Of a stretch of DNA of 47,509 nucleotides, positions 6,153-28,806 are shown one piece after another. The translations under genes and the position numbers were made by a program. The DNA is from Trichoplax sp. H2. Taxonomy: Eukaryota. The notes under the pieces were generated by a model that was not told the DNA's origin, ran no database searches, and worked only from the letters and a program-made list of their open reading frames with translations. The stretch's first letter is position 1; each line of letters opens with the position of its first letter. The stretch lies in NCBI GenBank assembly GCA_003344405.1, contig NOWV01000119.1, forward strand, positions 186,001-233,509. Direction: 5' to 3'.

Positions 6153-6470
6153 GTCAGTAAATTAATCATTGAGTAGCATAAGGAACTATGAAAGAAGACT
6201 GTCAAGCAAACATTAGGATTGCATGCTACGCATTCCTACGGCACAGCCCGACTAATAAACACTCTATACTTGTATCCCTTAACTCCCTTTCCTGTCTTCA
6301 ATTTACAAAGCAAGGCTATAACATGACATTACCCGTAGACTAAAGTCCTAACGTTATTTCATCAATCAAACATTGACAAGCATGAAAGAAATTGCATTTT
6401 AGTAACGGCTATATTTAGTAATCCATGGTTTCAGTCGTGATCGGTCCACGTATCCTTTCAATTTTGGACA

Positions 6471-7274
6471 TCACTCTTAAAGGTACATTCTCATTATGAA
6501 GTTGATCAAGGACTCATCGTGATACAACCCGACGGCATCAACGACTCGATTTCGTTACCTGATTAATTTACTCTACTTTTGAGATAGTGTATATATGTCA
6601 CATATACTTATACATATATCTCTATATATGTATACGTAACAGATGCACTATCTCACAAGTAGAGTAAATTAATCAATCGATCGATTAATTTACTGTGTAT
6701 ATATTATATACGTAACATATACACTATCTCACTAGTAGAGTAAATTAATCAGGCAATGAAATCGATCGAATAATTTACTGTGTATATGTATATACGTAAC
6801 ATATGCCTTATCTCACAAGTAGAGTAAATTAATCAGGTAATGAAATCGATCGATTAATTTACTGTATATATGTTATATATATATTACGGCCATTCCTAGG
6901 AATGATTTTGTCCGGGCAGTTAGCAAAATGACCGATTTCGCATACCGTCCCGTTTATATATGCACTATCTCACAAGTAGAGTAAATTAATCAGGTAATGA
7001 AATCGATCGATTAATTTACTGTGTGTATATATATATATACGTAACATATACACTATCTCACAAGTAGAGTAAATTAATCAGGTAATGAAATCGATTGATT
7101 AATTTACTGTGTATATATATACTGCATATACTTAACATATACACTATCTCACAATTAGAGTAAATTAATCAATCGATCGATTAATTTACTGTATATATAT
7201 ATATATACTTAACATATACTGCACCTTATCTCACAAGTAGAGTAAATTAATCAATCGATCGATTTATTTACTGT

Positions 7275-7308
<34 letters not shown>

Positions 7309-7778
7309 AACATATACATTATCTCACAAATAGAGTAAATTAATCAGGCAATGAAATCGATTGATTAATTTACTGTGTATGTATATATATACAGCATATA
7401 TGTAACAGATACACTATCTCACAAGTAGAGTAAATTAATCAATCGATCAATTAATTTACTGTATATATACTTAACATATACACTATCTCATAAGTAGAGT
7501 AAATTAATCAGGTAATGAAATCGATCGATCAATTTACTGTATATATGTTATATATACTTAACATATACACTATCTCACTAGTAGAGTAAATTAATCAGGT
7601 ATTGAAATCGATCGCCTAATTTACTGTATATATATATATACTTAACATATACACTATCTCACAAGTAGAGGAAATTAATCAGGCAATGAAATCGAGTCGT
7701 TGATGTTGTTGGTTGGCCATATCATGAGTCCCCGAGTCCTTGATCAACTTCATAATGAGAATGAACCTTTTATGAGTG
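6471..7778. mobile_element. Foldback-like element: ~130-bp imperfect terminal inverted repeats enclosing a tandem array
   Basis: 6471-6598 is the reverse complement of ~7645-7778 (CATTCTCATTATGAAGTTGATCAAGGACTC vs GAGTCCTTGATCAACTTCATAATGAGAATG; CATCAACGACTCGATTTC vs GAAATCGAGTCGTTGATG). No TSD or transposase identified. Confidence 0.6.
6646..7700 (+). repeat. Tandem array of 12 units (~70-95 bp), each with an internal inverted repeat and a variable (TA)n tract
   Basis: Unit CACTATCTCACAAGTAGAGTAAATTAATC(AGGTAATGA)AATCGATCGATTAATTTACTG(TA)n..TAACATATA, starting at about 6646, 6722, 6806, 6963, 7051, 7142, 7225, 7318, 7412, 7481, 7568 and 7652. Confidence 0.95.
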
Positions 7779-8485
7779 GCATCATTCCTCCTGGCAATGA
7801 TACTCGGGATATCATCCAACCTTCACTGTTTTCTATGCCAGCAAATGATGAAAAGTTCCACGGTAACATGGTGACCACTGACAGGGCAACAGCTGAATCG
7901 CAAAGGGTGACATGATGTGACATCACTTTCCATCTAGTCGATGACAATACGTCTGGTCGTGGACTGACGGACGAGGGTACGTTGGATACCATTGTCCATG
8001 CTACAGTAAGGATACAGTACGGAAATGAATATCATCATTTCGTGGCCAGCAACAGCTTTCGTGGTGCAATCTTTTAACCGTAGCTTGTGCGAGCTGTTCT
8101 TCAGGAAATACTTTTAATGTTATTTTAGCTGTTGTGCTGGCTAGTCAATCAAGAATCTTGTTGGATTGTTAGAGAAGATTGGAAAGTGTCTCTGTTGCAG
8201 AAATTTGCATATGAACTGTAGACTAGCATAGGCTGTATCGACGTCAAGTTTCTTAGCTGTCCTCGCTAAAAACAAATTGGCCATTTTATCACCAATGATT
8301 ATAATTGCAAGAACAAATTGTTTCATTAATTATTTATCGCTTGATACGATTCACTGAGCATTGGTTATTACCCAAGCGACAGCAAATTGGTTCTGGAAGA
8401 CTGAAAATTCTATCCAAACTGTGTTGACTTAACCGTTAAGGAGGCAATTTTTTCCCAATCTTGACTCAGGTTTGAAAGCATCAAC

Positions 8486-11377: not shown

Positions 11378-12613
11378 AGTTCTGACTTAGCTTATGGAAG
11401 CTTAGGATAGTACGCGCGAATTGTTAATGACATAGAGATTAAAATTTTAGTAGAGTATTATTCTATCATCTCATCATATTACTAACATACCTGAAAGTAT
11501 TTGAAAAAGCAACAATTTCATCTATCAGTATATCGAATTGTATAAATACAGTTAGAATATCCTTTTGAAACATTGTGGCGATATTCGTATAACGTGTATT
11601 TCAGACTGCTGTATCTAAACGAGCATATAACATTCAGCATCGCGTAAATTTATTTCAAGTTGTGTTTTTACTACGGGTATAACAACAAGTTTGTGGTATA
11701 TTTCTTATTATACTACTTATAAATATACCAGAACGTAGTGCAAAGTAAAATACGTATTAAAACTAGTCTGTAATAGAATATATAATGTGGTAAATCGTAC
11801 GTATAATTATATGTAATTATTGTAATAATATGCTATCTTACACGTATAATTTTTCTTGCATCATGTATTTGCAGTACGCGAAATCTTGACCTGGGGAATT
11901 CAGAATTCTCTCCATGCTCATTACTTGTGCTGTACATATATTACAAAAGGATAAGCTGTAGCTAACGCAGATACCATTATTGTTTTACCATTTCATTATC
12001 GGAATTAACGACGGACTGCTATTTCCGATTGTATTATATAATAGCTATTCCCGATGATTTACGTGCATTCGAAAATAAAAAGTGCAGCCATAGGGAAATC
12101 CATCATTTAGTTGCTCTGGGTATAAAGCATTACGACAGAAAGAATAACAAGTTCGGATATGTAATTATTTATACAGTAGCACCTCTTATTCGTATAAGAA
12201 ATTAGCCATTAAAGAGATACAAGGAGCTAAATATGAACTTTAGCCGCAACCTTTAGGCAAATTTCCAATAAATGTGAAATATTAAAAAAATGTTTTTTTA
12301 TTTAAATGTACTCCAAATGAGCATTTTTCAATCCATGGTAGAAAAAAATTGAATAGACTCTATAATCATTCTAGGTATTTCGACACCAACAAAGTTTATC
12401 TATCCAATGCAAAATGGGCAGATGTTTGTACTACCGACCAAAGAAGAAACATCCTTTCCCAAATCATTCAAAAATTCTTTTACTGCATGGAAAATCTTTA
12501 ATAAGCAAAGATCGTACGTGCAACATTTGTATAGGATCGTTGGAGCAAGTATCATAATTACTTTTTTGTGAGAACTATAACTTTTTATTACGGGAACGAT
12601 TAAATAAGTAACG

Positions 12614-14551
12614 TTACGCGATCTGAGGGAAAAGTTTTTTCAATTGGCAAACTGTATCTTCTGGCGATGTAACGGTATGACCAATTGTGCGTTCGCTATT
12701 AAAAATTTCGTGATCGTTCCCACCCTGATCGTCGCGAAAATATGTTATCTTAGTATTAAAAGCATCGATTGAATGATACATTATATTCGCTTAAAAAGCA
12801 ATCAGGCTAAATCGCTAACAACTGTTATATACCGGTTGAGTTTTGTCACCAAAGAAATAAATTTGATCGAATTCATTTGCTGGTATATGACGTAGGCAAT
12901 AAGTTTTGTCCCATCCGATTGGAAAGACATCAATACTAATTTGCCCACCTATGTCAGTGTCCAGTACAAAAAGTTGTCACAATTTTGAATAGTGGTTATA
13001 ATATTTCAATTATCCTAAAGTAAATTGTCCTTGGATTAACATGTGTACCGATCGCAAATTGTAGGCCAACATCAGGAAATTCTTTTCGGAGAGCTTGTAG
13101 AAACTTGAGTCGAATATTTTCAGCCTAATAGAAATTGATCGTCATAGATAAATATAAAATAGGATAGTATGATAGTATATTATGATAGCATGATAATACT
13201 CGTATACCATCATAGAGTAAAACTGTATACACGTAGCTAGAAAAGTTCAAACAAAGTTTCTGATGATACCTTGTCCAAAGCGACAAATTCCAATCTTTCG
13301 TCGTAGCTACAGCTGCGTCCAATAGGACAAAGATTAATCATGCTAGAGCGGAATTCAACAAAAGTACCTCTAGAATGACAAATCAAGAATTAATGAACTA
13401 CTGTTATGTGATGTTAAGTTATGTAGTACTACAGTATATGACTCGTATGTATTGACGTAGAGCGATAACGAATATGCGTCTACTCTATTTATTATTGCAT
13501 GATGGTATTCAACCTTTTCCTAGGCAATTGCAATTCAGACATGTATTTTAAAGCAAAGTTGATGACTTTCTGTAAGTTATCATCTCCGATGCAGCTGACA
13601 ATATTCTATGCAGGTATTACAAAAAGGATCAGAAGTCAATTTTGAACAATTTATTTACCCACTATTCCTACACTGACTATTGATGAATAGCCAACAATAT
13701 CATGGTATAGCAAGTTGACTGACCTCAGCGCTTATTAATTCACCCTTCTTATAACCAACAACTCCATTTTCAGCAAAGACATAATCATAAAACTTGGGAA
13801 CTGGCGAGAAAGGATTGAAATCATACAATAGAATTGATTGTAAACTACCTACTTCATATCCATTGCAATATAAACAGGACCAACTAATGTAATAAGTCTT
13901 ACAAGTCGTGTTACAAGACTTGTTGACAAATTGGCAGTTGTACTGAAAAGACGTAGGTATATTCAAGTCATCTATAAAACAATTTTCTACTCCTCTACGG
14001 AAATGCTCATTCCATTTGAAATAACTGTCTTGGCAAGTAAACCCAAGCGGAACTACAGAAGAGTATACTGTTTATAGTAGATCCCATTTGTACTAGTGTT
14101 GTCGCCTGCTGATGATCTTTGAATTAATGTCCTATACTGCATGTATTTGTAAGCTTGGATGACTAGAATACAAACAGCGAGCTATACAAGCATGCCATAC
14201 GATAGCATGTAAGAGAAATAAGTTTATCTTTTCCTTACTATCCTCTCCACCCAATTGTTCCTTGATTTTGCCATAATCTGATCCACCAACAATGCCAACA
14301 GCAACATGTTTCTTAAGGTTTTCTAGGGTGCATTTCATGTTATCCTCAATAAGCTAATATTGGAGAGAGAGTTAGTCAAGAAGGAGTAAATTGATCGATG
14401 ATGGATAGCAACAAGCCAAGAGAGTGCAAGTACTTGTACTGTTGAAGCCTACAATCTACAATAGTACAGCCTTCAATAGATCATCGCTAACCTTGCGAGC
14501 TGGCGTTAATGTGCCATCCACGTCGAATAATACAAGTATTTTGGCAGCCAT
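12614..14551 (-). CDS. PMM2: Phosphomannomutase (eukaryotic PMM, HAD family), multi-exon
   Basis: First exon [20 protein letters not shown] (14492-14551); [60 protein letters not shown]; stop TAA at 12614-12616. It is probably co-orthologous to PMM1 and PMM2. Confidence 0.95.
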
Positions 14552-14729
14552 TTTCACCGATTCTAAATAATCAATTTCCTAAATGTTGATCTCCTTTTTC
14601 CAACCGATTCTCGTCGACACTTTAACTACCAGTAGTTCTACGCACCAAAATGAAATCTCCTCCGAGTTAGTTGTATCCGGTTTGCTCAATCGCAGTCAAC
14701 AAAACTCCGTCAGCTGTAGTCCAGTTAAA

Positions 14730-15480
14730 TCTACTATACTGTACATGCAGTATACAGTACAGTACGTGATAAATCCGTCCATCCGACCACACAGTACACA
14801 GTACTGTGTATTGTGTAATACAGTGTACAGTGTACGCTACTGTACACTGTACACTGTTCAGTACCAATCTCGACATCTCGTACATGAGAAGTCTGTCCAT
14901 CCGACCATGTAGTACACAGTACACACTCTACTGTACTGTACAGTGTACAGTATAGCAGTTGTACAGTACATGAGAAGTCCGTCTATCCGACCACACAGTA
15001 CACAGTACAGTACTGTACTGTACTGTACTGTGTGACGGCCCAGCCATAATAACCCCGATTACTCACATACAGTACAGTACTCAGCGTAAATACAGTAGCT
15101 TCAACGATGATACAGTACTGTACAGTGTACAGTACAGTACATTATTCTAGGAGTTTTACAGTGTACAGTGTACGCCACTGTACTGTACTGTACACTCAAC
15201 AGTATAGTTCAGTACCAATCTCGTGCATGAGAAGTCCGTCCACCCGACCATACAGTACACAGTACACACTACAGTATACAGTACTGTACTGTACAGTGTA
15301 CAGTACAGTACGGTTCAGTACCAATCTCGTACATGAGAAGTCCGTCCATCTGACGATGCAGTACTGTACAGTATACTGTACAGTACAGTACGGTACCGTA
15401 CCTGTTGTACTGTACTGTACGGTATTGGTGATAATGGGTAGTACAGTACGGTACTGTACGTACAGTACAGTACCGTATAA
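14730..15480. repeat. TACAG/TACTG low-complexity palindromic tract with ~5 embedded copies of a CTCGTACATGAGAAGTCCGTCCATCCGACCA-like unit, between the divergent PMM and LRR genes
   Basis: Directly visible. It generates the spurious Y/C/T/V/Q-rich ORFs in the track. Confidence 0.9.
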
Positions 15481-15514
15481 GGATCACTAGTATCTGCTCA
15501 CCCGGCGGCAGTTT

Positions 15515-15525
15515 CAAAATGGCGG
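15515..15525 (+). promoter_or_regulatory. YY1-like motif CAAAATGGCGG upstream of the LRR gene
   Basis: Matches the YY1 consensus (CAARATGGCGG), about 50 bp before the ATG at 15574. Function is untested. Confidence 0.35.
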
Positions 15526-15573
15526 ATTATTGCTAAACAACTTTGGATAGATTTCAACACAGAAGAGAACGCC

Positions 15574-18500
15574 ATGACTTCACACGATCGTAAAGAAGTC
15601 AAAAAGCTAAAGGACAAAGCTGCCAGTAAAACTCTTTTCGGCAGTAATCAAGACATTGTTGTGATTGCAGCTGAAGATATGGTAAGCTATGACAGAATCA
15701 GCTCACGAAATGCAGCAGTAGCTTTAGAGCAAGAGTATAGTCAACATACTTTAGGCATGGAAACGAAATGAACAGTCAAGTGAATTATGATGATTCTCCA
15801 GCATAGACTTCAATATGGGTGAATTAAGAATGATAGTAGAATGCAATCAATTTTGAAGCTGATAGTTACCTATAGTACTTGCTATAGTCATCGGTAAGGA
15901 ATAAATTAACCTTCCAATCGATACACATCAATTAGAATTATTGAATTAAATTGTTATCATTCAGTATAAGCTTCAAGATCGATAAATAGACACGGTATAA
16001 GGATAGAGTGAATTTCGAAAAGGATACAGTTACTCTTTCCTAACAATAATATGGACACTATGATATTGAGAGAGCCTATCAATATCGCCGATTAGAGCAA
16101 TATATTGTACACGTATAATACATTACTCGGCCTATAACATACGCGTGAACTAATTAACTTGCTAGATACTTCATTAGCTGCTGTGTGCAGTGATCATAGA
16201 ATTAGATGCATACTGTACAGTGACTGATGGAAAAAAAATAGCTATGACGTAAGTTATTATTCTGAAACTTAACAAAAGTCTTAATATAGATAAATACAGT
16301 TACTGCGTGACAGTAGATGGTACGGCATTCGGCTGTTTACTAAACTAGCCAGATCCCTCATTAGCTGCTGTGTGCAGTGATCATAGAATTAGATACATAC
16401 TGTACAGTGACTGATGGAAAAAATAGCTATGACGTAAGTTATTATTCTGAAAGTTAACAAAAGTCTTAATATAGATAAATACAGCTACTGCGTGACAGTA
16501 GATGGTACTGCATTCGGCTGTCTACTAAACTAGCCAGATACTTCATTAGCTACAGTACTAAAAGCTTCAACAATTGCAAATTAACAACCAATATAAGAGT
16601 AGTATTAATTTCCTGACCAATGGATTGATTGATCTGGTTTCATGATATGTGTTTTCGTATTGTATATCCAATAGTTGAAGAAATGCAACGAAAAACACTA
16701 CGCCGACGTTTATAGCCTGGATATAAGCAACACTGGAATAACAAGAATTGCAAACTTAGAAAAGGTAAAATCATTCCTCACACCTGCCATGAGAGTATCA
16801 ATAGGTCAACAATGACAATACAAGTAAAAGTATATCAAAGCCAAATCAATGATTTCTATCGTTATTGTTATCTTTACTATGAACTAGTAATACCGTATGC
16901 AATGGGGCTATGTCGTTATGCTTGCTATTGGAATCAATGTCAATAGAATCCAATAAATAAAGAATTATAATTAATTAACTTTATTTTCACTCTTCCTTTA
17001 ACTCCATCATTAAACACAGTTTATAAAGCTTCGAGTCTTGGATTTATCATGTAATAAGATAGAATGGATAGATGGTTTACAACACAATCAGGTATTTTTG
17101 TTACTGATTAATATAGCATGTTTGATATACGTATCGTAAAACAAGTATATAACAACCTCTCCACACCAGTGTTCCCATATAAGTTTCTAGGGATTTGACT
17201 TTCACCTTTTTCTGTATAGGAATTGCGTGAACTGAAATTATACTCGAACAAAATTTCTGAGTTAAATGGCTTAGAGAAGTAAGTAACCAGTAGCTGTCAA
17301 CATCAACATTCCCAGAAACGATCAATAATAATTTAACAACGACAGTACATACAAGTGTATGCTACGGCCAGTGTCGATAATACCTGAATAACTTTCTAGT
17401 TACCTATTGTATGTACAATTTTATACTGTACAGTGTACAGTATACTTATCTACTTTCTTAATCTAACTAAAAAATGTTCACAATGACAGACTTAAAGGAT
17501 TAACTAACCTAATTCTTCAGTTTAACAACATTACTGAAATAGGTAAGTAGTATTCAAATTTATCTTAGGTTTTGTATACCATAGATTGTGTAATATTACC
17601 AGTAGCATATTTATTGATTAGCTCTTATTAATTTCATTTAGGCAACGGTTTAAAATCGTTAAGGGCACTCAAACTCCTCCGGATAGACAATAATAAAATT
17701 AATAAAGTGGAAAAAAACACGTTGACTTGTTGCCCAAATTTAAGTAGCTTAGACATGAGCAACAATTGTATCCATGATTTAACGGTGAGTATCTTTCGGC
17801 CTTTATGTGATATAATGGGGCTAGTATAGGAGTAATTATAATTTCAAGTCGTTCATTCAGTCATTTCGTGATTCGTTAATCTAAATAAAATGCCTCCCGT
17901 AAAAGTATCAGCTGGGATCATAATACCATTATTTATGACTGATGCATCTCAATTTTGTGATGGTATGACTTATTTCTGTTGATATCTATAGAATATCTGC
18001 TGTTTGAAAGCCTTAACGGAACTACGATTAGCAAATAATCAAATAGAGCATCTACCGGATAGTCTTGCTTGCAAATCAGTTAGTACGATTCAAGCACCAT
18101 AATAATGAACATTATCAAAAAATTTATACGAGTATTTTTCATGCTGTAACTCAGACTGCACCATTTCGCTAGTTATAAGTGAAATTAGATTAATCAAATC
18201 TACATAATTTATGCAATTTTTTACTAGCTGTCGGAATTAGATCTATCAGGTAACAGTCTTACCGATGTTGGTAGCTTGAATGGTTTACATGTTTTGAATG
18301 TAAGTGTTAACAATCATTTTAAATAAATCTATACAAGCATGTGGTTCCAGAATAGAAGTAGAAATACATAAGAAATCCAAAAACTGGACGATTTATTGAG
18401 CGACATGCCCAACTAATTTTGAATTTAATTTACTTTGATAGAATCTTAATATCAGCCGAAATAAAATACAGACTTTGGAATCATTAGGGAAAATGGGGTT

Positions 18501-20725
18501 TGTATTTATTTAATTAAACTGAATTCTGAATACTATCCGGTAAGTATCCTTATCAAGATAAAAACTTGACACTTTCAGGCGACTGCAAGAACTGCGAGCA
18601 GCTGACAATCTGATTTCATCAATATCGGTACTTCATATTCAATGATTATCGTCGTAATACAAGTATGAAGCATTAACGTATAAATAGTCTTTAATGGTAT
18701 CCATTACAACTATTTAAAGAGAATAAATGTTCAATTTCCGGCTCTCGAAATACTTGATATACAACGAAATCAGATATCTTTTATTGAAGATATGGTAAGT
18801 TATCTCACGATGCATACTGCTTTTAAATACATTTTGTGTTCTGCCACTGTATTGTAGTAGTTGTCAATATGAAACTGCTTGATGATTTATGACAGCTGTC
18901 ATTGCATTTTTTCAAGAGATATGGGTATCTAGCCTAGAAGTAGTGACAGATCTGAATCATTACTTTACATAATCGTTTGTAGATTTAACAACGTTGACTA
19001 TCAGCATTGGATATTCTCTTCTTACCTGAAAATTCTATACACGAGACTATCTTGCAAAAACTTAAAAATGGTTCTTTTCATTATTTAGGAATCACTAAAG
19101 TTAATTTCTACCGCAACAGAATATTTACTAATAGGTCAGTAAAATTGTTAGCACAAATCACTATAATTTATTTGATGCCTATTTTCTCTTCACCGCAATA
19201 TTTTTGTGCAAATGATGTCCAAAATATTCTCCTTAAAATTGAAATTAAGGAAATCCTGTTGAGTCAACTCCGGAATATAAGGGGTAATCATATGCCTTTT
19301 ATTGATTTATACTTGTAACAAATAAGAATGTTAGCAGACTATTGAGTAATTTCATCGGCTATTGCAGCTAAAGTAATGCTTCTCATGTGTTAGATTTTTA
19401 GCCAAGATATGGGAACTTGTTCTAAATCTGGAATCCTTGAACAAGGTATCTAGTATAGAAGCTAATCGTTATGCTAGATTTTCGCAAGTATGTTAATGTA
19501 TAAGATATTTGGACTTTTGTGTTATATTCTAACTCCAAGAAACAAAAGAGATCGAAAAATAATCCGAAACGACCGGGTTCTGCAACTATTATTATGAGAA
19601 AAATGTCAGGTTGGCGTTGTATTTCTTGCAGTCCCATATATCTCCATTAATAGCGATATACAGTATTACCGATTCTATTATGTACAACTCAGTACAAGTA
19701 CTTACTTACTTACTACGGATATATCTCTACGGCTTTTAACGAGCTTATTACAAAGTATTGCAATATAATAATTGAACGAAAATTTCTGCCATATATAGGA
19801 TTCGAGTCCAAAGAGGTAGAGGAAATAATTAAATTTTCTACAAGGCAATTGCATACATTTGAAACTTCAGTACAAGAAAGGTTTGCTTGCCTATTTATTT
19901 TATTAATATCGTTCTATGTGTAATGATAAAATAATGACTTCTTGTTATTTCCTATGGAATTGCAATATATAGATTTAATTCTATCCGGAAATCAATCGAT
20001 GAGCTACTCCCTGTACAAGCCATGTCTAAACGATGTATGATTAACTTCAAATGTACACTTTCGTATATATTCGCGTACAATGATAAAACGATGTATTATT
20101 TATTTTTACATATTGAGATCCTTAGTATCAATTGCACAGCATATTTTTCTATAAGGAGCTGAACTACTACTAATCTTTTGGGAGTGTAGGTTTATAACAA
20201 AAAAACAGTAGTAGCAGAGTAGGACATAATAAATTCCTGTTATTTTATACATCGTTGAAGCCAAGTTAATTGCGTTGCTGGTAAAACTAGAAATCTAGAT
20301 TTGACTGTCATGTATAATCGATTCAGTCATGTTATCAAGAATTATTATTGTATATTCAAAGTATATGTGTACAAATTACACATTAAATCTTTCATTTAAA
20401 TTCTTGTTTGCTGAATTTTACTATTGCAGCAATATCACCTTCCAAGAGCGCAATGGATGAGCGACCATATTCTGCAGGACAACGGCCATCTAGCCGCAGT
20501 GGAAGGTTATATAATAAATATCTATTGTTCCGCCTTAACTTTAGAATTACTCGTACTGCATAAATGTGAAAGTCAACTATCGTACAAATAAATTGCTATA
20601 AGTGTAATAAGCAATATCCAATTATCAAATGAATTATTTTTTGACTTTACAGGCTATCACGACTTCAGGAAGCTATGGCTTTTGCAACTGAAAATTTTAC
20701 GGAAGAGCCTGAACAGACCTCATGA
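15574..20725 (+). CDS. SDS22-class leucine-rich-repeat protein with LRRcap and low-complexity C-terminus, many short exons
   Basis: Exons 15574-15681, 16675-16764 (VYSLDISNTGITRIANLEK), ~17019-17091 (LRVLDLSCNKIEWIDGL), ~17220 (LRELKLYSNKISELNGL), further LxxLxLxxN exons, GNPVESTPEYKG..LNLESLN cap (~19250-19445), and a last exon ending at TGA 20723-20725. Orthology not determined. Confidence 0.8.
16161..16552. repeat. Near-identical intronic tandem duplication, 2 x ~187 bp plus the start of a third copy
   Basis: TCATTAGCTGCTGTGTGCAGTGATCATAGAATTAGAT... at ~16170 and ~16358; AGATACTTCATTAGCT recurs at ~16535. Confidence 0.9.
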
Positions 20726-21323
20726 CAGTAGCGCACTGTAAACCCATATTTACCTAGCAAAAGTGGGATGATGTCTTAATGCTATAACAAAGAATATTTT
20801 TTTACCAGCTTATTATTTTCATTTCATTATTCTTTATAGTAGGTAAATAATAATATTATTAATGGAATATCATTTCTGTAGTTATAAATACCGTGATCAA
20901 TTGTGTAAATAGCCCATTATTTTTGAACGATGATCATGGTTGTTGTAATTTAATAGGACATTGCGAGCATGAGAGAAATGCCAAGTTCGATATTTTTTTA
21001 ACCAAATTGATAACTATTGCATAAAGCAAAGAATTCTGAGCTCGATGACGTAAATCGTGTTCATTACGTATCTGTTATTTTGTAATTTATGTTATAATAT
21101 AATATATTTTTAGAACCAAAATCTGACGACAGATCGTTCATAAAAAATAAAATATGAATTACTCTTGACGTTGCAGTTTAATAATATTTATATAAAATAT
21201 AGGCCATGCATGACTCTTACTACGATAAAAAGGCGCTATCACCATAACATACAACAATTGAATAGCACAACATGATCTGGCGATAATGACGTTGTAGATG
21301 CATTGCACTGTAAGTAGAAAACA

Positions 21324-22064
21324 TTATTGTTTCAATATGCTTGCATAGCTTGTCAAGGCCGTCAGCGTAATAGAGGCAGTTTCACTTCTTAAGATGAAAG
21401 GACTTATCTTGATGCCAGTAGCACCAAGTTGATTTTCTAAATAGTTGATTTCTTTATCGGAAAATCCTTTCTCAGGTCCAATGCAGACAGTTTTACATTG
21501 AGCTAGGGTGGATTGAGGCGTAAATCCAACCTGAGCATTATCCAAGTGCCTAGTATCACCAAAACATATTGGGTGCACATTTGATTGTAATTTTAAATTA
21601 TGCAAACGATCAGCAAATGTCAACGTTGGTAAATCGAGGCGGCCACATTGCTTTATAGCGCTTATAGCAATCTCAGTCAATTTCTTACAACGTGCAGAGC
21701 TAAATTGCGAAATTTCACCTAGTTCACTGGCGTAGAGGTAAAAATGGCTTACTCCTAATTCAGTACATTTCTCGATGACAAGATCTAAGCCTTTACTTCG
21801 TATAAGTGGCTGAATTAAATTGATTCTCGGTTTATCCAGTACTAATTGCGTCAAGACTTGATCAATGTTTACGTGAGCAATTTGATTGCCTTGATAAGCA
21901 TCGATCCTGGCCTGTGCTAATTGATTTCTACCATTTATAATTTCTACCGTTTCTCCGACTCTCAGTCGCATTACATTCTTCATATGATGTAACTGATCGC
22001 CTTGTAAGGCAACTCTACCATTTTTGACCAGGTTGGAATTTAAGTAGAAGCGATAGCATGGCAT
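21324..22064 (-). CDS. rsmE: Bacterial-type 16S rRNA m3U1498 methyltransferase (SPOUT family), intronless, 246 aa
   Basis: Motifs HHMKNVMRLRVGETVEIING, VIEKCTELGV, AIKQCGR, IGPEKGFS and ILRSETA occur in canonical RsmE order and give a typical length. Confidence 0.93.
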   Translation of the reverse strand: MPCYRFYLNSNLVKNGRVALQGDQLHHMKNVMRLRVGETVEIINGRNQLAQARIDAYQGNQIAHVNIDQVLTQLVLDKPRINLIQPLIRSKGLDLVIEKCTELGVSHFYLYASELGEISQFSSARCKKLTEIAISAIKQCGRLDLPTLTFADRLHNLKLQSNVHPICFGDTRHLDNAQVGFTPQSTLAQCKTVCIGPEKGFSDKEINYLENQLGATGIKISPFILRSETASITLTALTSYASILKQ

Positions 22065-22828
22065 GATTCAATCGAGTAGCTAGGCAAAATTACGCGTATG
22101 TTTATGTGAATCTTGTAGGAGTTGTAGGCCACTGGTGTGGAAATTTTCCGTCGCAATAGGATAAATCAGTTGTAGCTTTCAAATTCTTCAATCGTGGTGC
22201 TAAAACTATCAATAGCAATAGTGTTAATACCAATGGTATCAGCTAAAATTGGCAGATAAGAAAAGCCTATTTAAGAATTGCTGCATTGCAAAGTATTTCA
22301 ATCCACCTGCATTAATATCAAAATCTGATTGGAATTAATAATCTTCACTTTCTTTCGGAACGCAAGGCTTTCATGCGATATAACACAACACTGCCAAATA
22401 CAATTAGCTTTTAAATCAGAATCTAGACGCTAAGGGATATTATCTTTCTCTAGATCCGCTAAGATTTAAAGTTATCATGTTACTACAGTAGATTTTCCTT
22501 CAGTGGAACTACGAGCCTCCTCAGGGAAATCATGGCCGCCATCGGCAAAGATTGCCAACTACAGTACTGTCGTTGGTACTCGAAATCAGGCAGTGTACAC
22601 ATTACACTCGCCTGTAGAGTATCGGTTAGTCTCTCTATACAGTCATACAAGTGGTATATTCGATCTGCTCACATGTAAAAGCTTTTATATAGATCGTACA
22701 GTATAGCAAGATACACTGAGTAGTGCTGCTGGTATTCGTAGCAGACTATGGTATGCATATTCACTATGCTATTTTTATAATATATCATAGAATTCGTTTC
22801 TACTGCAAAACACTGCTGCACACTATTT

Positions 22829-22853
22829 CAGGGACTACTAAGATAAGCCCCTG
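22829..22853. mobile_element. 25-bp inverted-repeat micro-element (CAGGGACTAC...AGCCCCTG) flanked by a 7-bp direct repeat ACTATTT
   Basis: Direct repeats at 22822-22828 and 22854-22860. The left end matches the TIR of the MITE at 47052. Confidence 0.4.
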
Positions 22854-22922
22854 ACTATTTTGACTGCCGTAATCGTAAAGTAAATAATAGTTTCTACTTT
22901 CTTCCATACTGTATGTAAAAAG

Positions 22923-23112
22923 AGTCTTATCTAAGATGGTAAAGTGTTAATGGATTATATAACAGTCTTATCTAAGATGGTAAAGTGTTAATGGATTATA
23001 TAACATAGTCTTATCTAAGATGGTAAAGTATTAATAGATTATATAATAATTAGAAATGGATTGTATAACATAGTCTTATCTAAGATGGTAAAGTCTTAAT
23101 GGATTATATAAT
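22923..23112. repeat. Minisatellite, 4 copies of a ~41-bp core AGTCTTATCTAAGATGGTAAAGTGTTAATGGATTATATAAC
   Basis: Directly visible. Confidence 0.9.
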
Positions 23113-24028
23113 AATTAGTAATACCACATGCAAACTTTGGTACGGTAGACTGTACAGCATGCAGTAGTATATTACTGTAATATGGTGTGCTTGGAATCTT
23201 GCTAAATTAACGATGTATCCTAACTCAAAGCAATCTTCTCTACACCTCATTTTCTTCGCCTAATGCTGTACTCTGGCAGTCTGACTCTGTTATGTAAATC
23301 TGATGCACAAAAATGCTGTACAATATATATGACATTATTGCGCGCTACACTGCTTACAATTACTACGCAAATTAAGATATCAAGCAAAAGTAATGCAAAG
23401 TTGATAACGCGTAACTACTAGAGACAAGAATTCTTACGGTATCGATTAGGAACAAACCTGAAAATATCGGTAGCCTAGAGCCAGCAAATATATTTTTATT
23501 TTTTATCTCAAAATTCATGTTTTTGCATAAATTTATACTACGCGTAAAACAAAGTTGTAATAAAGCTTGCAATAACAGTAACGCATGAACCCTTCTACCT
23601 ATTTATTCCATGACATTCATGAACGCATTGAATGATTTTTTGATACTGCTAGCAAATACTTTACAACGTATGGGGGTAATATTCTTCGGCATAATAGCAG
23701 CCATCAATAGCTGGTACATTTTCCGTTACAAATTTTCAGATATGCAGTACATGTACATCGTTCTGGAACTATTATAAATATCCACTAATAAATATCATCT
23801 AAATTATAATCGTTAATTTAAGGACCTACTATTCGTGAAGGTACAAATTACAGCGGATAATTAATCATATCATTACTGCATACTGTATTATAGTCTGTAC
23901 AAAAGAACTTTATAAACATATATTAACGATGCAATATTACATTTACTACAAGTCTTTGTACAAAAAATGTTTGATATCTAAGATATTGAAGAAAACTAAT
24001 TTTAACAATGCACTAGATTACATGAGAG

Positions 24029-27000
24029 TTAAGCAGACAATGATGCCTTCTTTCGTGATGCCTTCGTTACAAACAGAACGAACGACATAATCTTTTCATA
24101 CATGGTAAACATCAAAGCTGTAGTTAAGACGGTCTGTAATAGCTTCGCCTCCAAGCCTTTGAATAGACCAGAGAAGCCTTCATGCCTAGCGAGGTAAATA
24201 AGACAGAGTAAATTCGATGTGTGACTGTCATGTTAGGTTGATCTTTAAGGATTAATAATCTTAAATATTTCGGTAAACTTACGAATTAATACACAATGAG
24301 TTACAAACCTAATTATCTCCTGCATGATAGTAATGAAGGTACGCTTCTTATTGGCCTTTTCAGAAGTATTGTGCTAAGGATATTTATGGACATATAAATT
24401 AATAGTTAATATTAACGACACTTGTCTTTATGCGGCAGTTATTTTATATGAAGTTACCCTTAAACGAGCTTGAGAGACTTGCAGAGGGTAAGTGAGCACA
24501 GTTGCAATAGCCTTTGAGATTGCGCCCATTAGGAATACCAACCAAGATGGAATCTACAGTAAAAACACCAGTTGTACATACAAGTTATGACCTATTATGA
24601 GCTAAGTGATAAAATAGAATAGCAACCAGCGGCAACCATTTCGACATAAGGCTATTCATGTAAATTAATAGTAGTAATCATAATAATAATAATAGTGCTA
24701 TTTCATTTGAAGACTCCAGCTTTAAATGATTTTAACGAGTAACCTGCATATTGTTTTTTCCTCGAGTAATGTATCTTTTAAGAGCTTCATATGACATGAA
24801 CTGAATAGCGGGATTACAACATAATACCAATGATGGTGCTAGACCACTCCATAAGGAAAGTATTCCCTCTTCCTTGATAATACGTCTAAAGCAATCTGCC
24901 ATTATAATAACGATACTTTATCAATTAGACTGTCTACTCGTATACAATGTAGCTCAATTTGAATTAGGTGGCATTACATTAACGTCAACTTACCAAAAAT
25001 ACCGGTATACTGAGTCTTTTTTATGACTTTATTGTTATAATCACGAACAGTCACACCTTGCAAACGCAGTCTTGTATTTGCAACCCAAAGTGGAGTTGTT
25101 GCAAAAACATTAATAGTACCTGTATTACATTACCAACACTTAGCAAGTTTTAATTCAAGACTGTAAGCATAACATTCACAATTGCTATACTGTTTATAAT
25201 GTTGTCTTTTTTTAAGCTCGTAAAATGAAGATAGCAAGTAGAAACGCATAAACTCAGTACTGTAACAAAAATTTAACATCACGATTTCTAATATGACAGA
25301 ATTTACAGAGAATTAAATTTAGCTATTATATTGAATGCCGCTAATGATCTCGAATTGAAATAAACTCCTTCAAAAATTAAGAAGTGCGCAATTAATTAAT
25401 TTCCTTATTTCCACTCAAAGTAATATTCTCTTTCCATAATCTATGAAAATGTAATGGCTTAACCATACACTACAATCGATACTACCAATAGGTTGGTTCA
25501 ATATTTAATTGATGAACATATCTAAATATATATTTTGAAATAATATTCAAGCGCGAAAGATTTACCAGCAACCATTCCAACCACTAAATCACTAACTGAC
25601 TGAGTTAAAGGTAGTTGTTTAACCACATCCAACATCCTCAATCCATTGAAGGCATAAAAATAAACAAAATTCGAACAATACAGGCTGGTTAGCACAGGTC
25701 CGAAGCCGGTATAAAGAGCAGATCTATGGAGAAAGTGTAGTGACAATTGGTTTAGTTATTAACCCGTTTTGTCCATATGATTCTATTGTATTTGCAATAT
25801 TTTAAAGTAATGGTTATAAAACAATTTATCTTACAATCCTTCCTCTCGGATAATTTTGGCTAATATCTGATGGGTTGGTTTAACCAGTTTGGTCTGCATA
25901 TCAACTATACATTGATCATGCAAAGATCCACAAAGGCATACGATGATATCAATGAAAAATATTAACAAAAAGTAATATAAATACAGAGGTATTTATAGTT
26001 AGTAAAGTACTGCAATTGCGCCATGTATTTATCTTTCAAGCTCATTCGCAAGCTGATAGCTGCCTAACTCGCACGATGTTCGACAGTTTAATAAGTGCAC
26101 ATGGCTTACTATCAAGCAACAGAATTGCATCAGCCTTATTTCAGCTATTGCTACAGAAATCAAGTCAGCTAGAATTGACTTTGTTAAGCAGTAGCTAAAT
26201 ATACAGTGCATATGTATCACGTGAGCATATAAGTACGCTAAGGTGGTTGTTTATATATCCGAATTAGATACAGTAGCTAAACACAGTATTTAATATAAAC
26301 GCGCTCAGACAACCTGGTTATAAAAATGTCAACGTCAGAGGTTAACCCTAAGTAAAGAATTAATTAAAGTTAACATCAAGGTTGAGATACTGAATCGGCG
26401 AATGCTTCATCAGCCCACTATCTCAGATTTGGTGTTAACTCCATGCGGAGATGTTCTCCATTAATTAGGGTTGAGCTAATACGTTGACAGAGTTGGCTGA
26501 TCATGATGTATCGTAACATACAGTGTACAGTATGAGCTAGTTGGCACATCGAAATAACCCATCCATGCACTCTATGAAATGCTATTCTAATTTCAGTAGA
26601 GCCCGTAGGAATAAGCGCTAAAGTATTGAGCATGCAAAAAGCTCAACTGCCATACTTGCAAAGTGTTGTGTCTAAATGCCGCCTAAATCTGTACAAAATC
26701 TCCTATACATTACCTTGCAGACGAGTTCTAGCCAGATCTAATGGATAAAAGGTAGACATCGCTACCGCGCTGCCCTATTTAGAATAATACGATAATCATA
26801 AAAATTTTCAGAAATAACAAGCTTTGAAGATGATGCACGCATCCATTGACCAAAATTTGCACGAATGGCTATAAACGGACATGATATATGGATAGTAATA
26901 ATGGATTGTATAAGCGCATATGCAATACGGTTTAATAGCTTGCAACCTTGCAACTTTTCGACCGTTATCAGAATGCGATAGTGACGACTGTGTACTGTGC

Positions 27001-27299
27001 AAGGAATGGCTAACTCTAAAGTAATAACATAATCAAAGGCATTCCTACAGTCAATACAACTAACTGTATTGTTCGATCGTTATAAATCTTCTGGTTTTAC
27101 AGTCGATCCTTTTTACTCATGCCTTCTCTACTTACTGTTTTTGACATCAACCTTACTGTATTCATTAACAGGCAACATTGTAGTTATACACAATCAAGTC
27201 TAAAATGAACAATTAGCCAAGGATTTAGTCTAGGTAAAAGCTTACAGAAGCTCCAGCAATGGCGTGTGTTAACGCATCGAAGGTTAAAAGCGAAGACAT
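24029..27299 (-). CDS. SLC25A17: Peroxisomal membrane carrier PMP34, paralog A
   Basis: Exon 1 [18 protein letters not shown] (27246-27299), [71 protein letters not shown]; stop at 24029-24031. Confidence 0.92.
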
Positions 27300-27656
27300 G
27301 TTGATGAAAGCTTGTCGATTGCTGTCGTGATGGGCTGAAATTGAAATCGGCGGATTGCTCTCACCAAGGCAAAAAGAAGTTGCAATACTCCTGTCCGCTG
27401 ACTCCTACTTGACCCGGTCGAGGATTGTTCGTTCAGTACTACGTTCCATTCATGACCTAACCATCCATACAGTATGCGTAATATCACCAGAGATGACGGA
27501 AGTGTATGAGCAGCGACGACATCGGCTAGCATGACATTGCAACGATAAAGGTCTTTGACTGCACCGTATGTCTTGTATTGTACACTCGATAGTTGATACC
27601 ACCATGGGTCGGGTCGAAGGTCGTCCTACTACACTACAGTATGGAGGTACTGGCTG

Positions 27657-27683
27657 ACCCCCAACCCTACCCACCCCTACCTG
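27657..27683 (-). promoter_or_regulatory. Potential G-quadruplex upstream of SLC25A17 paralog A
   Basis: The minus strand reads GGGG-T-GGG-TA-GGG-TT-GGGGG, inside a locally GC-rich segment that also has a CACGTG E-box. Confidence 0.4.
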
Positions 27684-28806
27684 GCTAAGTATTGGTTGGT
27701 TTTCCAACGGTATCACGTGATGGTCTGATACTCGGGTTATGAACCCGAGCTGCTAGACACCGTAAGGACTTGACCTCGGATCGCGTCGGACAGGCAGAGT
27801 AGCGGACTGGAATGATGGCCTTGTACTGCTTGAGGGGTAAATAAAAATTAATCAATCAATCAATAACAAATCATTATTGCATAGGGGTGTAATATTATCT
27901 TCTTTAAGTAGCGTAAGTATTTTAAGGTAGATGATAATAGAAGGTATAAGGATTTTATTGAGATACAAGTTACAGGCTAGCAATGATATGGTTGTTATAG
28001 ATAAGGTATTTGAGATAGCAGGAATGTAGGAACTGACTAACGAGTTAGCGTACAAGGGTATTTATAGGTTTTAGATGGGATTGAGATAATGTCTTTATAT
28101 GTATAGCATGTCGTCTATATGAGGTCATAATGTCGTACATTATGAATGTAATACAATACAGTACTTAAACGGTATATGATAAGAATTCGTATATTAGGAT
28201 ATTACTATACTAGGCATCTTCTATATAAGATCATAATGTTACAAGGGGATCGAGGGTTAGATGATCAAGGTAAAAGGAAAATCGCTATGGGATAAATGCA
28301 ATTATACAGCGTAGTAGGTAGATGCTGTGCAAAACAGATGTCAGGCAATGATTGAAAATAGGCTGGGGGGTATTCGATTGGTCGCCCACCACTGTATTGC
28401 ATTAGTNNNNNNNNNNNNNNNNNNNNCCCTACCCACCCCTACCTGGCTAAGTATTGGTTGGTTTTCCAACGGTATCACGTGATGGGCTGATACTCGGGTT
28501 ATGAACCCGAGCTACTAGACACCGTAAGGACTTGACCTCGGATCGCGTCGGACAGGCAGAGTAGCGGACTGGAATGATGGCCTTGTACTGCTAGCTGAAG
28601 GGTAAAAATCAATCAATCAATCAATAGCAAGTCATTATTGCATAGGGGATCGAGGGTTAGATGATAAAGGTAAAAGGAAAATCGCTATGGGATAAATGCA
28701 ATTATACAGCGTAGTAGGTAGATGCTGTGCAAAACAGATGTCAGGCAATGATTGAAAATAGGCTGGGGGGTGTTCGATTGGTCGCCCACCACTGTATTGC
28801 ATTAGT
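27666..28806. other. Duplicated segment on both sides of a 20-N gap (28407-28426); probably two uncollapsed haplotypes
   Basis: 27666-27887 plus 28249-28406 is nearly identical to 28427-28806, apart from a few SNPs/indels and the LTR-like insert. Confidence 0.75.
27888..28243 (-). mobile_element. Solo-LTR-like insertion, 356 bp
   Basis: Termini TGTAATATTAT...ATAATGTTACA (TG..CA, 10/11 inverted match), 5-bp TSD AGGGG at 27883-27887 and 28244-28248, empty site at 28644-28648. TATA-like (~28095) then AATAAA (~27955) on the minus strand. Confidence 0.8.

What the first reader, a model, noticed from the sequence alone, without database searches (positions are those of the whole stretch)
21324..22064. 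Intact, intronless bacterial-type rsmE embedded among animal genes: probable domesticated horizontal transfer
Seen: a full 246-aa RsmE ORF with no intron, contiguous (no gap) with an intron-rich LRR gene and SLC25A17, so simple contamination is less likely. Known: RsmE makes m3U1498 in bacterial 16S rRNA and is not part of the standard animal gene set. Seen: canonical EQ and GPEGG appear as KQCGRLDLP and GPEKG. Inference: these variants and the MPxxRFY start remind me of chlamydial RsmE (recollection, unverified), suggesting an intracellular-bacterium donor. The likely substrate is mitochondrial SSU rRNA or a symbiont ribosome, which would be an undescribed rRNA-modification route in an animal.
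Basis: partly seen in the sequence, partly recalled or inferred. Interest (0 to 1): 0.85.

Follow-up and report, generated by a model that had tools for sequence, protein, structure and literature searches.

The report
Chlamydial rRNA methyltransferase gene in animal
An animal genome, most likely a placozoan, carries an intact and transcribed gene for a bacterial ribosomal-RNA methyltransferase acquired from chlamydia-like bacteria; this transfer was reported in 2013, and the RNA it acts on is still unknown.

Summary
A 246-aa RsmE-family ORF lies at 21324-22064 (-), with PUA and SPOUT domains and a confident RsmE fold. It is the only bacterial-like sequence in a stretch of intron-rich animal genes.

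It is not contamination. DNA contigs from two runs cross the gene at the same depth as the flanks. RNA contigs from two studies cover it and stop at a canonical AG acceptor (22207-22206) and a GT donor (20650-20649). The coding sequence therefore sits in one exon of a spliced mRNA.

The careful tree puts it with chlamydia-like RsmE (100/99 support). It carries their GPEKG signature. Whether it is nested in or sister to that clade is unresolved (AU p 0.27).

Two relatives at 68-69% identity show strong constraint at family-conserved sites (p 2e-11). Their genomic context could not be seen.

The core claim is already in print. Driscoll et al. 2013 called the Trichoplax adhaerens rsmE clearly chlamydial and a strong transfer candidate.

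Added here: the spliced transcript, the deep orthologues, the constraint, and a basic, acid-free N-terminus.

The target RNA is untested; I favour mitochondrial SSU rRNA.

The parts
21324..22064 (-). rsmE coding sequence: 246 aa plus TAA stop, no intron. N-terminal PUA-like domain (about residues 20-54) and SPOUT methyltransferase domain (about residues 79-237).
   Evidence: AlphaFold2 model with pLDDT 93.8. Foldseek TM 0.77-0.82 to solved RsmE structures.
20651..22205 (-). Transcribed exon that holds the whole coding sequence. The 5' UTR part is 22065-22205 (141 nt, no upstream ATG, A at -3). The 3' UTR part is 20651-21323 (673 nt).
   Evidence: RNA contigs X14 record 12 (20651-22207) and X19 record 18 (20651-22205). 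Sequence.
22206..22207 (-). AG of a 3' splice acceptor just upstream of the exon, preceded by a T-rich tract. The upstream 5' exon (at least 85 nt in the X19 contig) was not located.
   Evidence: Sequence. Both RNA contigs end here, while DNA contigs X1 record 6 and X5 record 25 run on to 22548.
20645..20650 (-). GTAAAG 5' splice donor immediately after the exon.
   Evidence: Sequence. Both RNA contigs leave the genome at 20651 and continue for 74 nt (X14) and 597 nt (X19) in sequence that is not adjacent.
20472..20650 (-). Candidate 3'-UTR intron of 179 nt ending in a cctgcag acceptor at 20473-20472. This is inferred; the joint itself was not among the rows shown.
   Evidence: Sequence. X14 record 11 covers 20005-20459. 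Contigs give no strand, so this piece could instead belong to the convergent LRR gene.
22068..22070 (-). In-frame TGA two codons upstream of the start codon. It rules out an N-terminal extension encoded by this exon.
17014..18857 (+). Context: exons of a leucine-rich-repeat gene that converges on rsmE.
23465..25990 (-). Context: upstream neighbour, a mitochondrial-carrier-family (SLC25-type) gene with at least six introns, seen spliced in both RNA runs.
12500..14651 (-). Context: downstream neighbour, a eukaryotic phosphomannomutase gene with seven introns, seen spliced in both RNA runs.

Best explanation
This is a nuclear gene of an animal, very probably a placozoan of the genus Trichoplax. 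It was acquired by horizontal transfer from a chlamydia-like bacterium, and only the rsmE reading frame was kept.

It now lies between host genes, with host-like base composition. It is transcribed as a spliced mRNA in which the unbroken coding sequence occupies one 1555-nt exon flanked by UTR introns.

It encodes a complete RsmE-type SPOUT methyltransferase: a PUA RNA-binding domain plus a knotted SAM-binding catalytic domain, presumably a homodimer like its relatives.

Its conserved sites have been held constant since three lineages that differ at about 31% of residues split. The enzyme is therefore still in use.

Inferred mechanism: SAM-dependent N3-methylation of the universally conserved uridine equivalent to E. 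coli U1498, at the top of helix 44 in a small-subunit rRNA. I rank the possible targets as follows:
- mitochondrial SSU rRNA, about 45%;
- cytosolic 18S rRNA or another RNA, about 35%;
- a symbiont's 16S rRNA, about 10%;
- no catalytic role, about 10%.

The confidence given is for the transferred, expressed and constrained RsmE-type enzyme. It does not cover the choice of target.
For: Family and fold:
- Pfam and TIGR00046 scores are well above their cut-offs.
- The AlphaFold2 model has pLDDT 93.8.
- All of the top 24 ranks Foldseek listed are RsmE-family structures, including E. coli 4e8b at TM 0.77.
- phmmer finds 12 distinct RsmE-family PDB sequences.
- R226, Q139 and E102 are invariant in the 38-sequence alignment. 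My reading is that they match the active-site residues R224, Q141 and E101 named by Tkaczuk et al. 2007 (PMC1829167, passages read).

Integration in the host genome:
- The protein sits on a 9.74-Mb contig.
- X1 record 6 (16492-22548, depth 61.4; neighbouring contigs 58.9-60.8) and X5 record 25 (17893-22548, depth 29.9; neighbours 28.2-35.6) cross the gene at flank-level depth.
- tblastx against six chlamydia-like loci finds similarity only within 21345-22064.
- GC and GC3 are 38.7% and 33.6%, against 36.6-39.4% and 28.1-37.1% for three host genes.

Animal host:
- The neighbours are spliced PMM, Mito_carr and LRR genes.
- The best named relatives of the inward-rectifier channel gene are animal GIRK channels at 43% identity or less.

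Expression and splicing:
- One declared RNA run (X19) and one presumed RNA run (X14), from different studies, both cover 20651-22205/7.
- Both stop at AG and GTAAAG sites and continue in non-adjacent sequence.

Origin:
- All 8 hits that carry an organism name among the best 120 are Chlamydiota.
- In the careful tree of 74 rows, the trio plus 45 chlamydia-like rows form a clade at 100/99 against 26 rows from other phyla.
- GPEKG occurs in 108 of 124 chlamydia-like rows against 0 of 74 others.

Constraint:
- 56 of 59 family-conserved columns are identical in the three orthologues, against 51 of 111 variable columns (Fisher p 1.8e-11).
- 3 of 4 between-run SNPs in the ORF are synonymous.

Mitochondrial lean (weak): the first 22 residues have net charge +3, +2 and +2 with 0-1 acidic residues. 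Only 6 of 116 chlamydia-like relatives reach +2, and only 2 of 116 have one acidic residue or fewer.

Prior report: Driscoll et al. 2013.
Against: - All 22 NCBIfam equivalog models score below their cut-offs (best 124.2 against 196). Identity of function with bacterial RsmE is therefore inferred.
- There is no N-terminal extension or presequence, and the in-frame TGA excludes one from this exon. The plant-style organelle-import route is not met, so a cytosolic location is the default.
- The exons flanking the rsmE exon were not located. The joint rows were among those not shown, so the UTR introns rest on contig ends plus splice motifs.
- X14 is only presumed to be RNA, and RNA libraries can hold DNA.
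- A stop codon 673 nt before a downstream intron would normally invite nonsense-mediated decay.
- On the upstream side the short-read contigs shown break at 22548 and resume at 23065 or 23145. The link to the carrier gene rests on the window's own assembly.
- No plastid or cyanobacterial RsmE is in my trees.
- The genomic context of P0002 and P0003 was not seen, so they are presumed rather than shown to be animal orthologues.
- The AU test does not reject a sister position to the sampled chlamydia-like clade (p 0.267).
- The host species is inferred; no tool named it.
Confidence: 0.8

Rival explanations
1. The gene is a domesticated transfer, but the enzyme stays in the cytosol. It methylates cytosolic 18S rRNA at the conserved helix-44 uridine, or it has moved to another RNA.
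For: There is no presequence or signal peptide. The protein starts where the bacterial proteins start, and a TGA closes the frame upstream. From general knowledge, the sequence around U1498 is conserved in all SSU rRNAs, so a bacterial enzyme could find the site in 40S subunits. The long stem branch (1.03) leaves room for a change of substrate.
Against: The N-terminus has lost nearly all acidic residues compared with 116 chlamydia-like relatives. Pressure for mitochondrial import would explain that shift; a cytosolic role would not. As far as I recall, no m3U is known at this site in any eukaryotic 18S. All six changes at family-conserved columns are conservative.
Confidence: 0.3
2. The host-encoded enzyme serves an intracellular bacterial symbiont by modifying its 16S rRNA. 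This is the suggestion of Driscoll et al. 2013.
For: Section 30 of PMC3641634 proposes that RsmE and three other non-rickettsial transfers 'may function in the maintenance' of the rickettsial endosymbiont. The enzyme's native substrate is a bacterial 30S subunit.
Against: The N-terminus has no hydrophobic signal peptide. One would be needed to reach a symbiont held inside a membrane compartment. [quoted passage not shown] I did not test whether the symbiont has its own rsmE.
Confidence: 0.08
3. P0002 and P0003 are not animal orthologues. They are genes of an unsampled chlamydia-like lineage that was the recent donor, so the transfer is young, as Driscoll et al. supposed.
For: Their contigs are short (2454 and 4091 nt), unnamed and unseen. 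Driscoll et al. called the intron-free candidates 'likely recent transfers'.
Against: The exhaustive search finds a single cluster above 50% identity, then a drop from 388.7 to 165.6 bits. The three share the basic N-terminus. Both relatives are called with 21-22 extra upstream codons, as expected where no bacterial start signal exists. Their 31-32% distance from the window matches the mean protein distance of 28.3 +/- 12.9% between two placozoan genera (PMC6067683, section 8). The window gene already has host composition and UTR introns.
Confidence: 0.1
4. The gene reached the animal from a eukaryote, for example a plastid-type rsmE from algal food, or it was inherited vertically. It did not come straight from a bacterium.
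For: Nuclear rsmE genes exist in plants (PMC1829167; AT1G50000 in the bioRxiv preprint 10.1101/2024.06.14.598963). No plastid-type sequence is in my trees.
Against: No named eukaryotic protein is among the best 120 hits. There is no cluster between 46% and 69% identity. The clade with chlamydia-like sequences has 100/99 support and the GPEKG signature. There is no transit peptide. Driscoll et al. state that the only eukaryotic rsmE genes encode chloroplast-targeted products and place this one with Chlamydiae.
Confidence: 0.04
5. Bacterial contamination or a misassembly has been placed in an animal scaffold.
For: The short-read contigs shown do not bridge 22549-23064, a region with tandem repeats.
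Against: Depth equals the flanks in two runs (61.4 and 29.9). Contigs continue 4.8 kb and 3.4 kb beyond the stop codon and 484 nt beyond the start into non-bacterial DNA. There is no second bacterial ORF or tblastx hit nearby. Transcripts are spliced. 20 of 24 listed runs from 8 studies hold the stretch.
Confidence: 0.01

Closest known systems
rsmE lateral-transfer candidate of Trichoplax adhaerens (Driscoll et al. 2013, Genome Biol Evol 5:621, PMC3641634)
   Same: A single-exon rsmE of 'clearly chlamydial origin' on a large scaffold of eukaryotic genes in an animal. This is very probably the same gene or its orthologue.
   Different: That paper classed such intron-free genes as likely recent transfers without eukaryotic features, and gave no expression data in the parts I read. 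Here the transcript looks spliced at both UTRs, two relatives at 68-69% identity point to an old transfer, and constraint is measured.
RsmE of Chlamydiota (Parachlamydiales, Simkaniaceae, Neptunochlamydia and related metagenome-assembled genomes)
   Same: 35-46% identity over the full length. Shared motifs MPxxRF, KQCGRLDLP and GPEKGF. One clade at 100/99 support.
   Different: The stem branch is long (1.03). The N-terminus is basic and free of acidic residues. There is one extra residue after YQGNQ. The gene is nuclear with a spliced transcript.
E. coli RsmE (YggJ), the 16S rRNA m3U1498 methyltransferase (PDB 4e8b), and relatives 5o95/5o96, 1nxz and 5vm8
   Same: The same two-domain fold (TM 0.77-0.82) and the same knot motifs and candidate catalytic residues.
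   Different: Only 23-27% identity. GPEKG replaces GPEGG and KQ replaces EQ. Activity and substrate are untested here.
Plant nuclear rsmE homologue (putatively AT1G50000) for chloroplast 16S m3U1498
   Same: A nuclear-encoded RsmE-family protein in a eukaryote that acts on a bacterial-type ribosome inside the cell. This is the only precedent for how the gene could work in an animal.
   Different: The plant proteins are sent to chloroplasts (Driscoll et al.). The animal protein has no N-terminal extension, and animals have no plastid.

Membership tests
RsmE family (COG1385 / TIGR00046 / PF04452 + PF20260) | SPOUT methyltransferase domain PF04452 | tested here: met
   E 1.4e-28, 100 bits against a cut-off of 23.9, residues 79-237.
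RsmE family (COG1385 / TIGR00046 / PF04452 + PF20260) | N-terminal PUA-like RNA-binding domain | tested here: met
   PF20260 at E 6.3e-12 and 45.8 bits. The model shows a beta-rich N-terminal domain over residues 5-72.
RsmE family (COG1385 / TIGR00046 / PF04452 + PF20260) | Family-level NCBIfam model above its curated cut-off | tested here: met
   TIGR00046 scores 123.6 bits against 41.
RsmE family (COG1385 / TIGR00046 / PF04452 + PF20260) | Equivalog-level score, NCBI's threshold for calling the same function | tested here: not met
   0 of 22 PRK11713 equivalog models reach their cut-off; the best is 124.2 against 196. I did not scan chlamydial RsmE against these models, so I cannot say whether this is usual for that clade.
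RsmE family (COG1385 / TIGR00046 / PF04452 + PF20260) | Full-length fold like solved RsmE structures | tested here: met
   pLDDT 93.8. TM 0.77-0.82 to 5o95/5o96, 5vm8, 4e8b and 1nxz.
RsmE family (COG1385 / TIGR00046 / PF04452 + PF20260) | Knot motifs and candidate catalytic residues (R224, Q141, E101 of Tkaczuk et al. 2007) | tested here: met
   G196, P197, E198, G200, L225, R226, T229, Q139 and E102 are invariant in 38 sequences. Matching them to the published numbering is my inference from the alignments.
RsmE family (COG1385 / TIGR00046 / PF04452 + PF20260) | SAM-dependent N3-methylation of U1498 in SSU rRNA; homodimer | not testable with these tools
   This needs biochemistry. I sent no complex prediction.
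Chlamydiota-type RsmE subclade | Groups with chlamydia-like sequences against other phyla | tested here: met
   100/99 support in the careful tree of 74 rows; 99 in the FastTree of 200 rows.
Chlamydiota-type RsmE subclade | GPEKG in place of GPEGG | tested here: met
   108 of 124 chlamydia-like rows against 0 of 74 others. P0001 and P0003 have GPEKG; P0002 has GPEQG.
Chlamydiota-type RsmE subclade | Nested inside the clade rather than sister to it | tested here: inconclusive
   The chlamydia-like rows form a clade without the trio in 0 of 200 bootstrap trees. The AU test does not reject that arrangement (p 0.267).
Domesticated bacterium-to-animal gene transfer | Physically joined to host genes at host copy number in independent data | tested here: met
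   X1 record 6 and X5 record 25. The upstream link beyond 22548 is not bridged by the contigs shown.
Domesticated bacterium-to-animal gene transfer | Transcribed with eukaryotic processing | tested here: met
   RNA contigs of two studies end at AG and GTAAAG sites and continue elsewhere. The flanking exons were not located, and one of the two runs is only presumed to be RNA.
Domesticated bacterium-to-animal gene transfer | Purifying selection | tested here: met
   At the protein level: 56 of 59 conserved columns against 51 of 111 variable columns, p 1.8e-11. 3 of 4 SNPs are synonymous. dN/dS between species was not computed because no orthologue DNA was available.
Domesticated bacterium-to-animal gene transfer | Orthologues at the same locus in related host species | tested here: inconclusive
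   P0002 and P0003 exist, but their contigs could not be fetched. A metagenome scan found nothing.
Organelle-targeted nuclear RsmE (plant type) | N-terminal targeting extension | tested here: not met
   The protein starts at the bacterial start, and a TGA lies two codons upstream within the same exon. The only hint of targeting is a charge shift in the first 22 residues.

The most novel reading that the evidence does not exclude
An ancestor of the living placozoans took a chlamydial rsmE and used it to put the bacterial decoding-centre methylation m3U1498 back onto its own mitochondrial small-subunit rRNA. As far as I recall, this modification is absent from the animal and yeast mitoribosomes studied so far. 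The import signal would have been built by remodelling the first 20 or so residues of the folded PUA domain, with no presequence added. It would be the first animal rRNA-modification enzyme of horizontally transferred origin with a defined organellar substrate.
Probability: 0.35. Interest if true: 0.65.

Novelty: already known. Interest (0 to 1): 0.4.

Why it matters
Well-supported, expressed and selectively maintained bacterial genes in animals are few, and this one acts on the translation machinery. If the target is the mitoribosome, an animal lineage has changed the chemistry of its decoding centre with a borrowed gene. That can be tested directly by mapping m3U in placozoan rRNAs.

The chlamydial source also bears on whether placozoan ancestors once harboured chlamydiae. 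Driscoll et al. list cox3 and an fkpA-trmH fusion as chlamydial too.

The main claim has been in print since 2013.

Tried and rejected
- Own-genome search: no genome is held for this window, so I could not look for paralogues or other chlamydial genes.
I used stop-free exon references instead.
- The listing of cluster members gave no names or accessions for P0002-P0007, P0010, P0012, P0017 or P0045.
- The search of earlier findings returned nothing by place, sequence or words.
- A scan of metagenome contigs with the three-sequence alignment matched 149 pattern stretches; none encodes a relative.
- Rfam found no family at gathering score in the whole window.
- tblastx of 15800-27400 against six chlamydia-like loci found nothing credible outside the ORF. 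The two outside hits have E 0.19 and 0.93, so no remnants of donor neighbour genes were detected.
- I did not rank expression by contig depth, and I drew nothing from stretches without RNA cover, as the tool advises.
- I tried by eye to place the 85-nt 5' exon using a TATA-like box near 22690 and candidate donors near 22612. The lengths did not fit, so I dropped it.
- I compared the upstream 'extension' of P0002 and P0003 with the translated 5' UTR of the window by eye. A few shared residues were too weak to use.
- Literature: rsmE with Trichoplax gives 1 paper. Trichoplax with chlamydial and gene transfer gives 11, only Driscoll et al. relevant by title and abstract. Grellia with Trichoplax and gene transfer gives 2, neither on rsmE by title and abstract. 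The 2026 placozoan lysozyme paper (PMC12855814, passages) does not mention Chlamydia or Driscoll.
Full report
**Observation.** It is the only ORF of 90 aa or more between 19318 and 32249, in a window that has 13 such ORFs in 47.5 kb. Pfam finds the RsmE methyltransferase domain (PF04452, E 1.4e-28) and its PUA domain (PF20260, E 6.3e-12). NCBIfam's family model TIGR00046 scores 123.6 bits against a cut-off of 41, but none of the 22 equivalog models reaches its cut-off; the best is 124.2 against 196. An AlphaFold2 model built from a 38-sequence alignment has mean pLDDT 93.8. All of the top 24 ranks Foldseek listed are RsmE-family structures, at TM 0.77-0.82 for 5o95/5o96, 5vm8, 4e8b and 1nxz. 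phmmer finds 12 distinct RsmE-family PDB sequences.

**Surroundings.** The window is AT-rich (29-45% GC per kb) and carries animal-type genes.
- The ORF at 394-1662 (+) is an inward-rectifier potassium channel. Its best named relatives are animal GIRK channels from lamprey, sharks, birds, a rotifer and insects, at 43% identity or less. The host is therefore an animal with no close named relative in the database.
- RNA contigs reveal two spliced minus-strand genes flanking rsmE. Exon by exon, one is a eukaryotic phosphomannomutase at 12500-14651 (4 of 4 exons hit PF03332). The other is a mitochondrial-carrier-family gene at 23465-25990 (4 of 5 exons hit PF00153). I did not test whether the carrier is SLC25A17.
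- LRR exons lie on the plus strand at 17014-18857.

**Not contamination.**
- The protein is recorded on a 9.74-Mb contig.
- In two DNA runs from different studies, single contigs cross the gene. X1 record 6 spans 16492-22548 at depth 61.4, with neighbouring contigs at 58.9-60.8. X5 record 25 spans 17893-22548 at depth 29.9, with neighbours at 28.2-35.6.
- 20 of 24 listed runs, from 8 studies, hold the stretch.
- tblastx against six chlamydia-like loci finds similarity only inside 21345-22064, so no other donor gene survives.
- GC and GC3 of the ORF (38.7% and 33.6%) match three host genes (36.6-39.4% and 28.1-37.1%).
- Caveat: the contigs shown break at 22548 and resume at 23065 or 23145, next to tandem repeats. 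The join to the carrier gene therefore rests on the window's own assembly.

**Transcript.** A declared RNA run (X19) and a presumed RNA run (X14), from different studies, each give a contig that covers 20651-22205 or 20651-22207 and then continues in sequence not adjacent in the genome. X19 has 597 nt beyond one end and 85 nt beyond the other; X14 has 74 nt beyond one end. On the coding strand these ends coincide with an AG at 22207-22206, preceded by a T-rich tract, and a GTAAAG at 20650-20645. The DNA contigs run straight through both points. I read this as a 1555-nt exon that holds the whole coding sequence, with an intron in each UTR. A good acceptor at 20473-20472 would make the 3'-UTR intron 179 nt, within the 84-446 nt range of the neighbours' introns. 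The joint rows themselves were among those not shown, so the flanking exons are inferred and not located. The 141 nt of 5' UTR in this exon hold no ATG, the start codon has A at -3, and an in-frame TGA sits two codons upstream. So 'intronless' is true of the coding sequence only.

**Origin.**
- Of 850 relatives found by the word-index search, the best 120 are listed. After two relatives at 69% and 68% identity, identity falls to 42% or less. All 8 hits that carry an organism name are Chlamydiota: Parachlamydiales, Simkaniaceae, Simkania, Neptunochlamydia and unclassified Chlamydiae.
- The exhaustive HMMER search of 1.84 billion representatives finds 20658 relatives. Only one cluster is above 50% identity (P0002, 388.7 bits); the next hit scores 165.6 bits.
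- A FastTree of 200 rows and a careful IQ-TREE of 74 rows agree. In the careful tree the three sequences form a clade (100/100) on a long stem (1.03). With 45 chlamydia-like rows they form a clade at 100/99 against 26 rows from other phyla, including true Verrucomicrobiota and Planctomycetota.
- Inside that clade the backbone is unresolved. The chlamydia-like rows are never monophyletic without the trio in 200 bootstrap trees, yet the AU test does not reject that arrangement (p 0.267). The donor was chlamydia-like; its exact lineage is open.
- GPEKG is a good marker: 108 of 124 chlamydia-like rows have it, against 0 of 74 others. The KQ count among the others is inflated, because one search pattern contained it.
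- No plastid or cyanobacterial RsmE is in these trees.

**Constraint and age.** I defined conserved columns from the 35 chlamydia-like rows alone. By that definition 56 of 59 conserved columns are identical in all three sequences, against 51 of 111 variable columns (Fisher p 1.8e-11). The window keeps the bacterial consensus at 53 of 59, and the six changes are conservative and shared by all three. Between sequencing runs, 3 of 4 SNPs in the ORF are synonymous; the fourth is C167Y, seen in one run. The window differs from P0002 and P0003 at 31-32% of residues. That is close to the mean protein distance between Trichoplax adhaerens and Hoilungia hongkongensis (28.3 +/- 12.9% over 6,554 orthologues; PMC6067683, section 8 read). 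This fits orthologues in other placozoan genera, but I could not see their contigs.

**What is known.** Driscoll et al. [quoted passage not shown] They place it on a large eukaryote-dominated scaffold and count it among intron-free genes that are 'likely recent transfers'. They also suggest it may help maintain the rickettsial endosymbiont. It is the only paper in the library that holds both rsmE and Trichoplax. Tkaczuk et al. [quoted passage not shown]

**Host identity.** I think the window is that locus, at about 85%, for four reasons.
- It is an animal with no close named relative.
- Its assemblies hold about 100 million letters.
- It has exactly the published feature.
- No named Trichoplax protein appears among the hits, although that genome's proteins are public (recalled). 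That is expected if it is the masked self-hit.

**Mechanism.** Shown: a complete, constrained, transcribed RsmE-type enzyme encoded in an animal nucleus. Inferred: it still transfers a methyl group from SAM to N3 of the uridine equivalent to U1498 in a small-subunit rRNA, as a dimer.

The compartment is open. The protein has no extension. However, its first 22 residues carry net charge +3, +2 and +2 with 0-1 acidic residues, whereas only 6 of 116 chlamydia-like relatives reach +2 and only 2 of 116 have one acidic residue or fewer. Pressure for mitochondrial import would produce that shift, and this is my reason for favouring mitochondrial rns (about 45%). The alternatives are cytosolic 18S rRNA or another RNA (about 35%), a symbiont ribosome (about 10%, with no signal peptide to reach it) and loss of catalysis (about 10%).

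Noticed in passing
window 14453-15754: High-copy repeat. Summed contig depth is 6378-8977 in X1 and 3121-4471 in X5, against about 60 and 30 in the flanks, so roughly 100-150 copies. It is full of ACAGTAC-type short tandem units and a 106-nt unit. Its two ORFs (14583-14912 and 15107-15490) have no Pfam match. Many chimeric joints and loose ends pile up here.
   Followed up: partly
window 27473-28774: Second repeat family, at about 14-25 times the flank depth: 850-1288 in X1 and 498-738 in X5. Not characterised.
   Followed up: no
window 22548-23145: Short-read DNA contigs of both runs break here, just upstream of the rsmE exon. Tandem repeats of 41 and 65 nt lie at 22923-23122. The rsmE promoter and 5' exon may lie in or near this stretch.
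   Followed up: partly
window 16156-16551: A 185-nt unit repeated 2.1 times at 93% identity, upstream of the LRR exons.
   Followed up: no
window 394-1662 (+): Single-exon inward-rectifier potassium channel gene (IRK plus IRK_C domains). Its closest named relatives are animal GIRK/Kir3 channels at only 36-43% identity. The database's own entry for it is 310 aa, shorter than the 422-aa TTG-started ORF.
   Followed up: partly
window 21697 (inside the rsmE ORF): One X14 RNA contig matches from 21697 onward but carries more than 255 unrelated letters before it (table 7). It could be an alternative splice form, a chimeric contig or a second copy. No canonical donor sits exactly there.
   Followed up: no
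window 21565: C>T in run X1 changes Cys167 to Tyr in RsmE. Cys167 is identical in all three orthologues. It is the only non-synonymous difference among the four seen.
   Followed up: partly
P0002 and P0003, residues 1-22: Both relatives are called with 21-22 extra in-frame codons ahead of the conserved MPxYRFY start, where the window has a TGA. The first ten residues of the two extensions are alike. It is unclear whether this is translated or just an open 5' UTR.
   Followed up: partly
loci L002, L003, L006: Three genome records titled 'Verrucomicrobia bacterium' carry RsmE proteins that score and branch with the chlamydia-like clade. The four rows of Verrucomicrobiota that group apart (L009, L014, L018, L058) do not. 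The three records may be mislabelled, or the gene may have moved within the PVC group.
   Followed up: no
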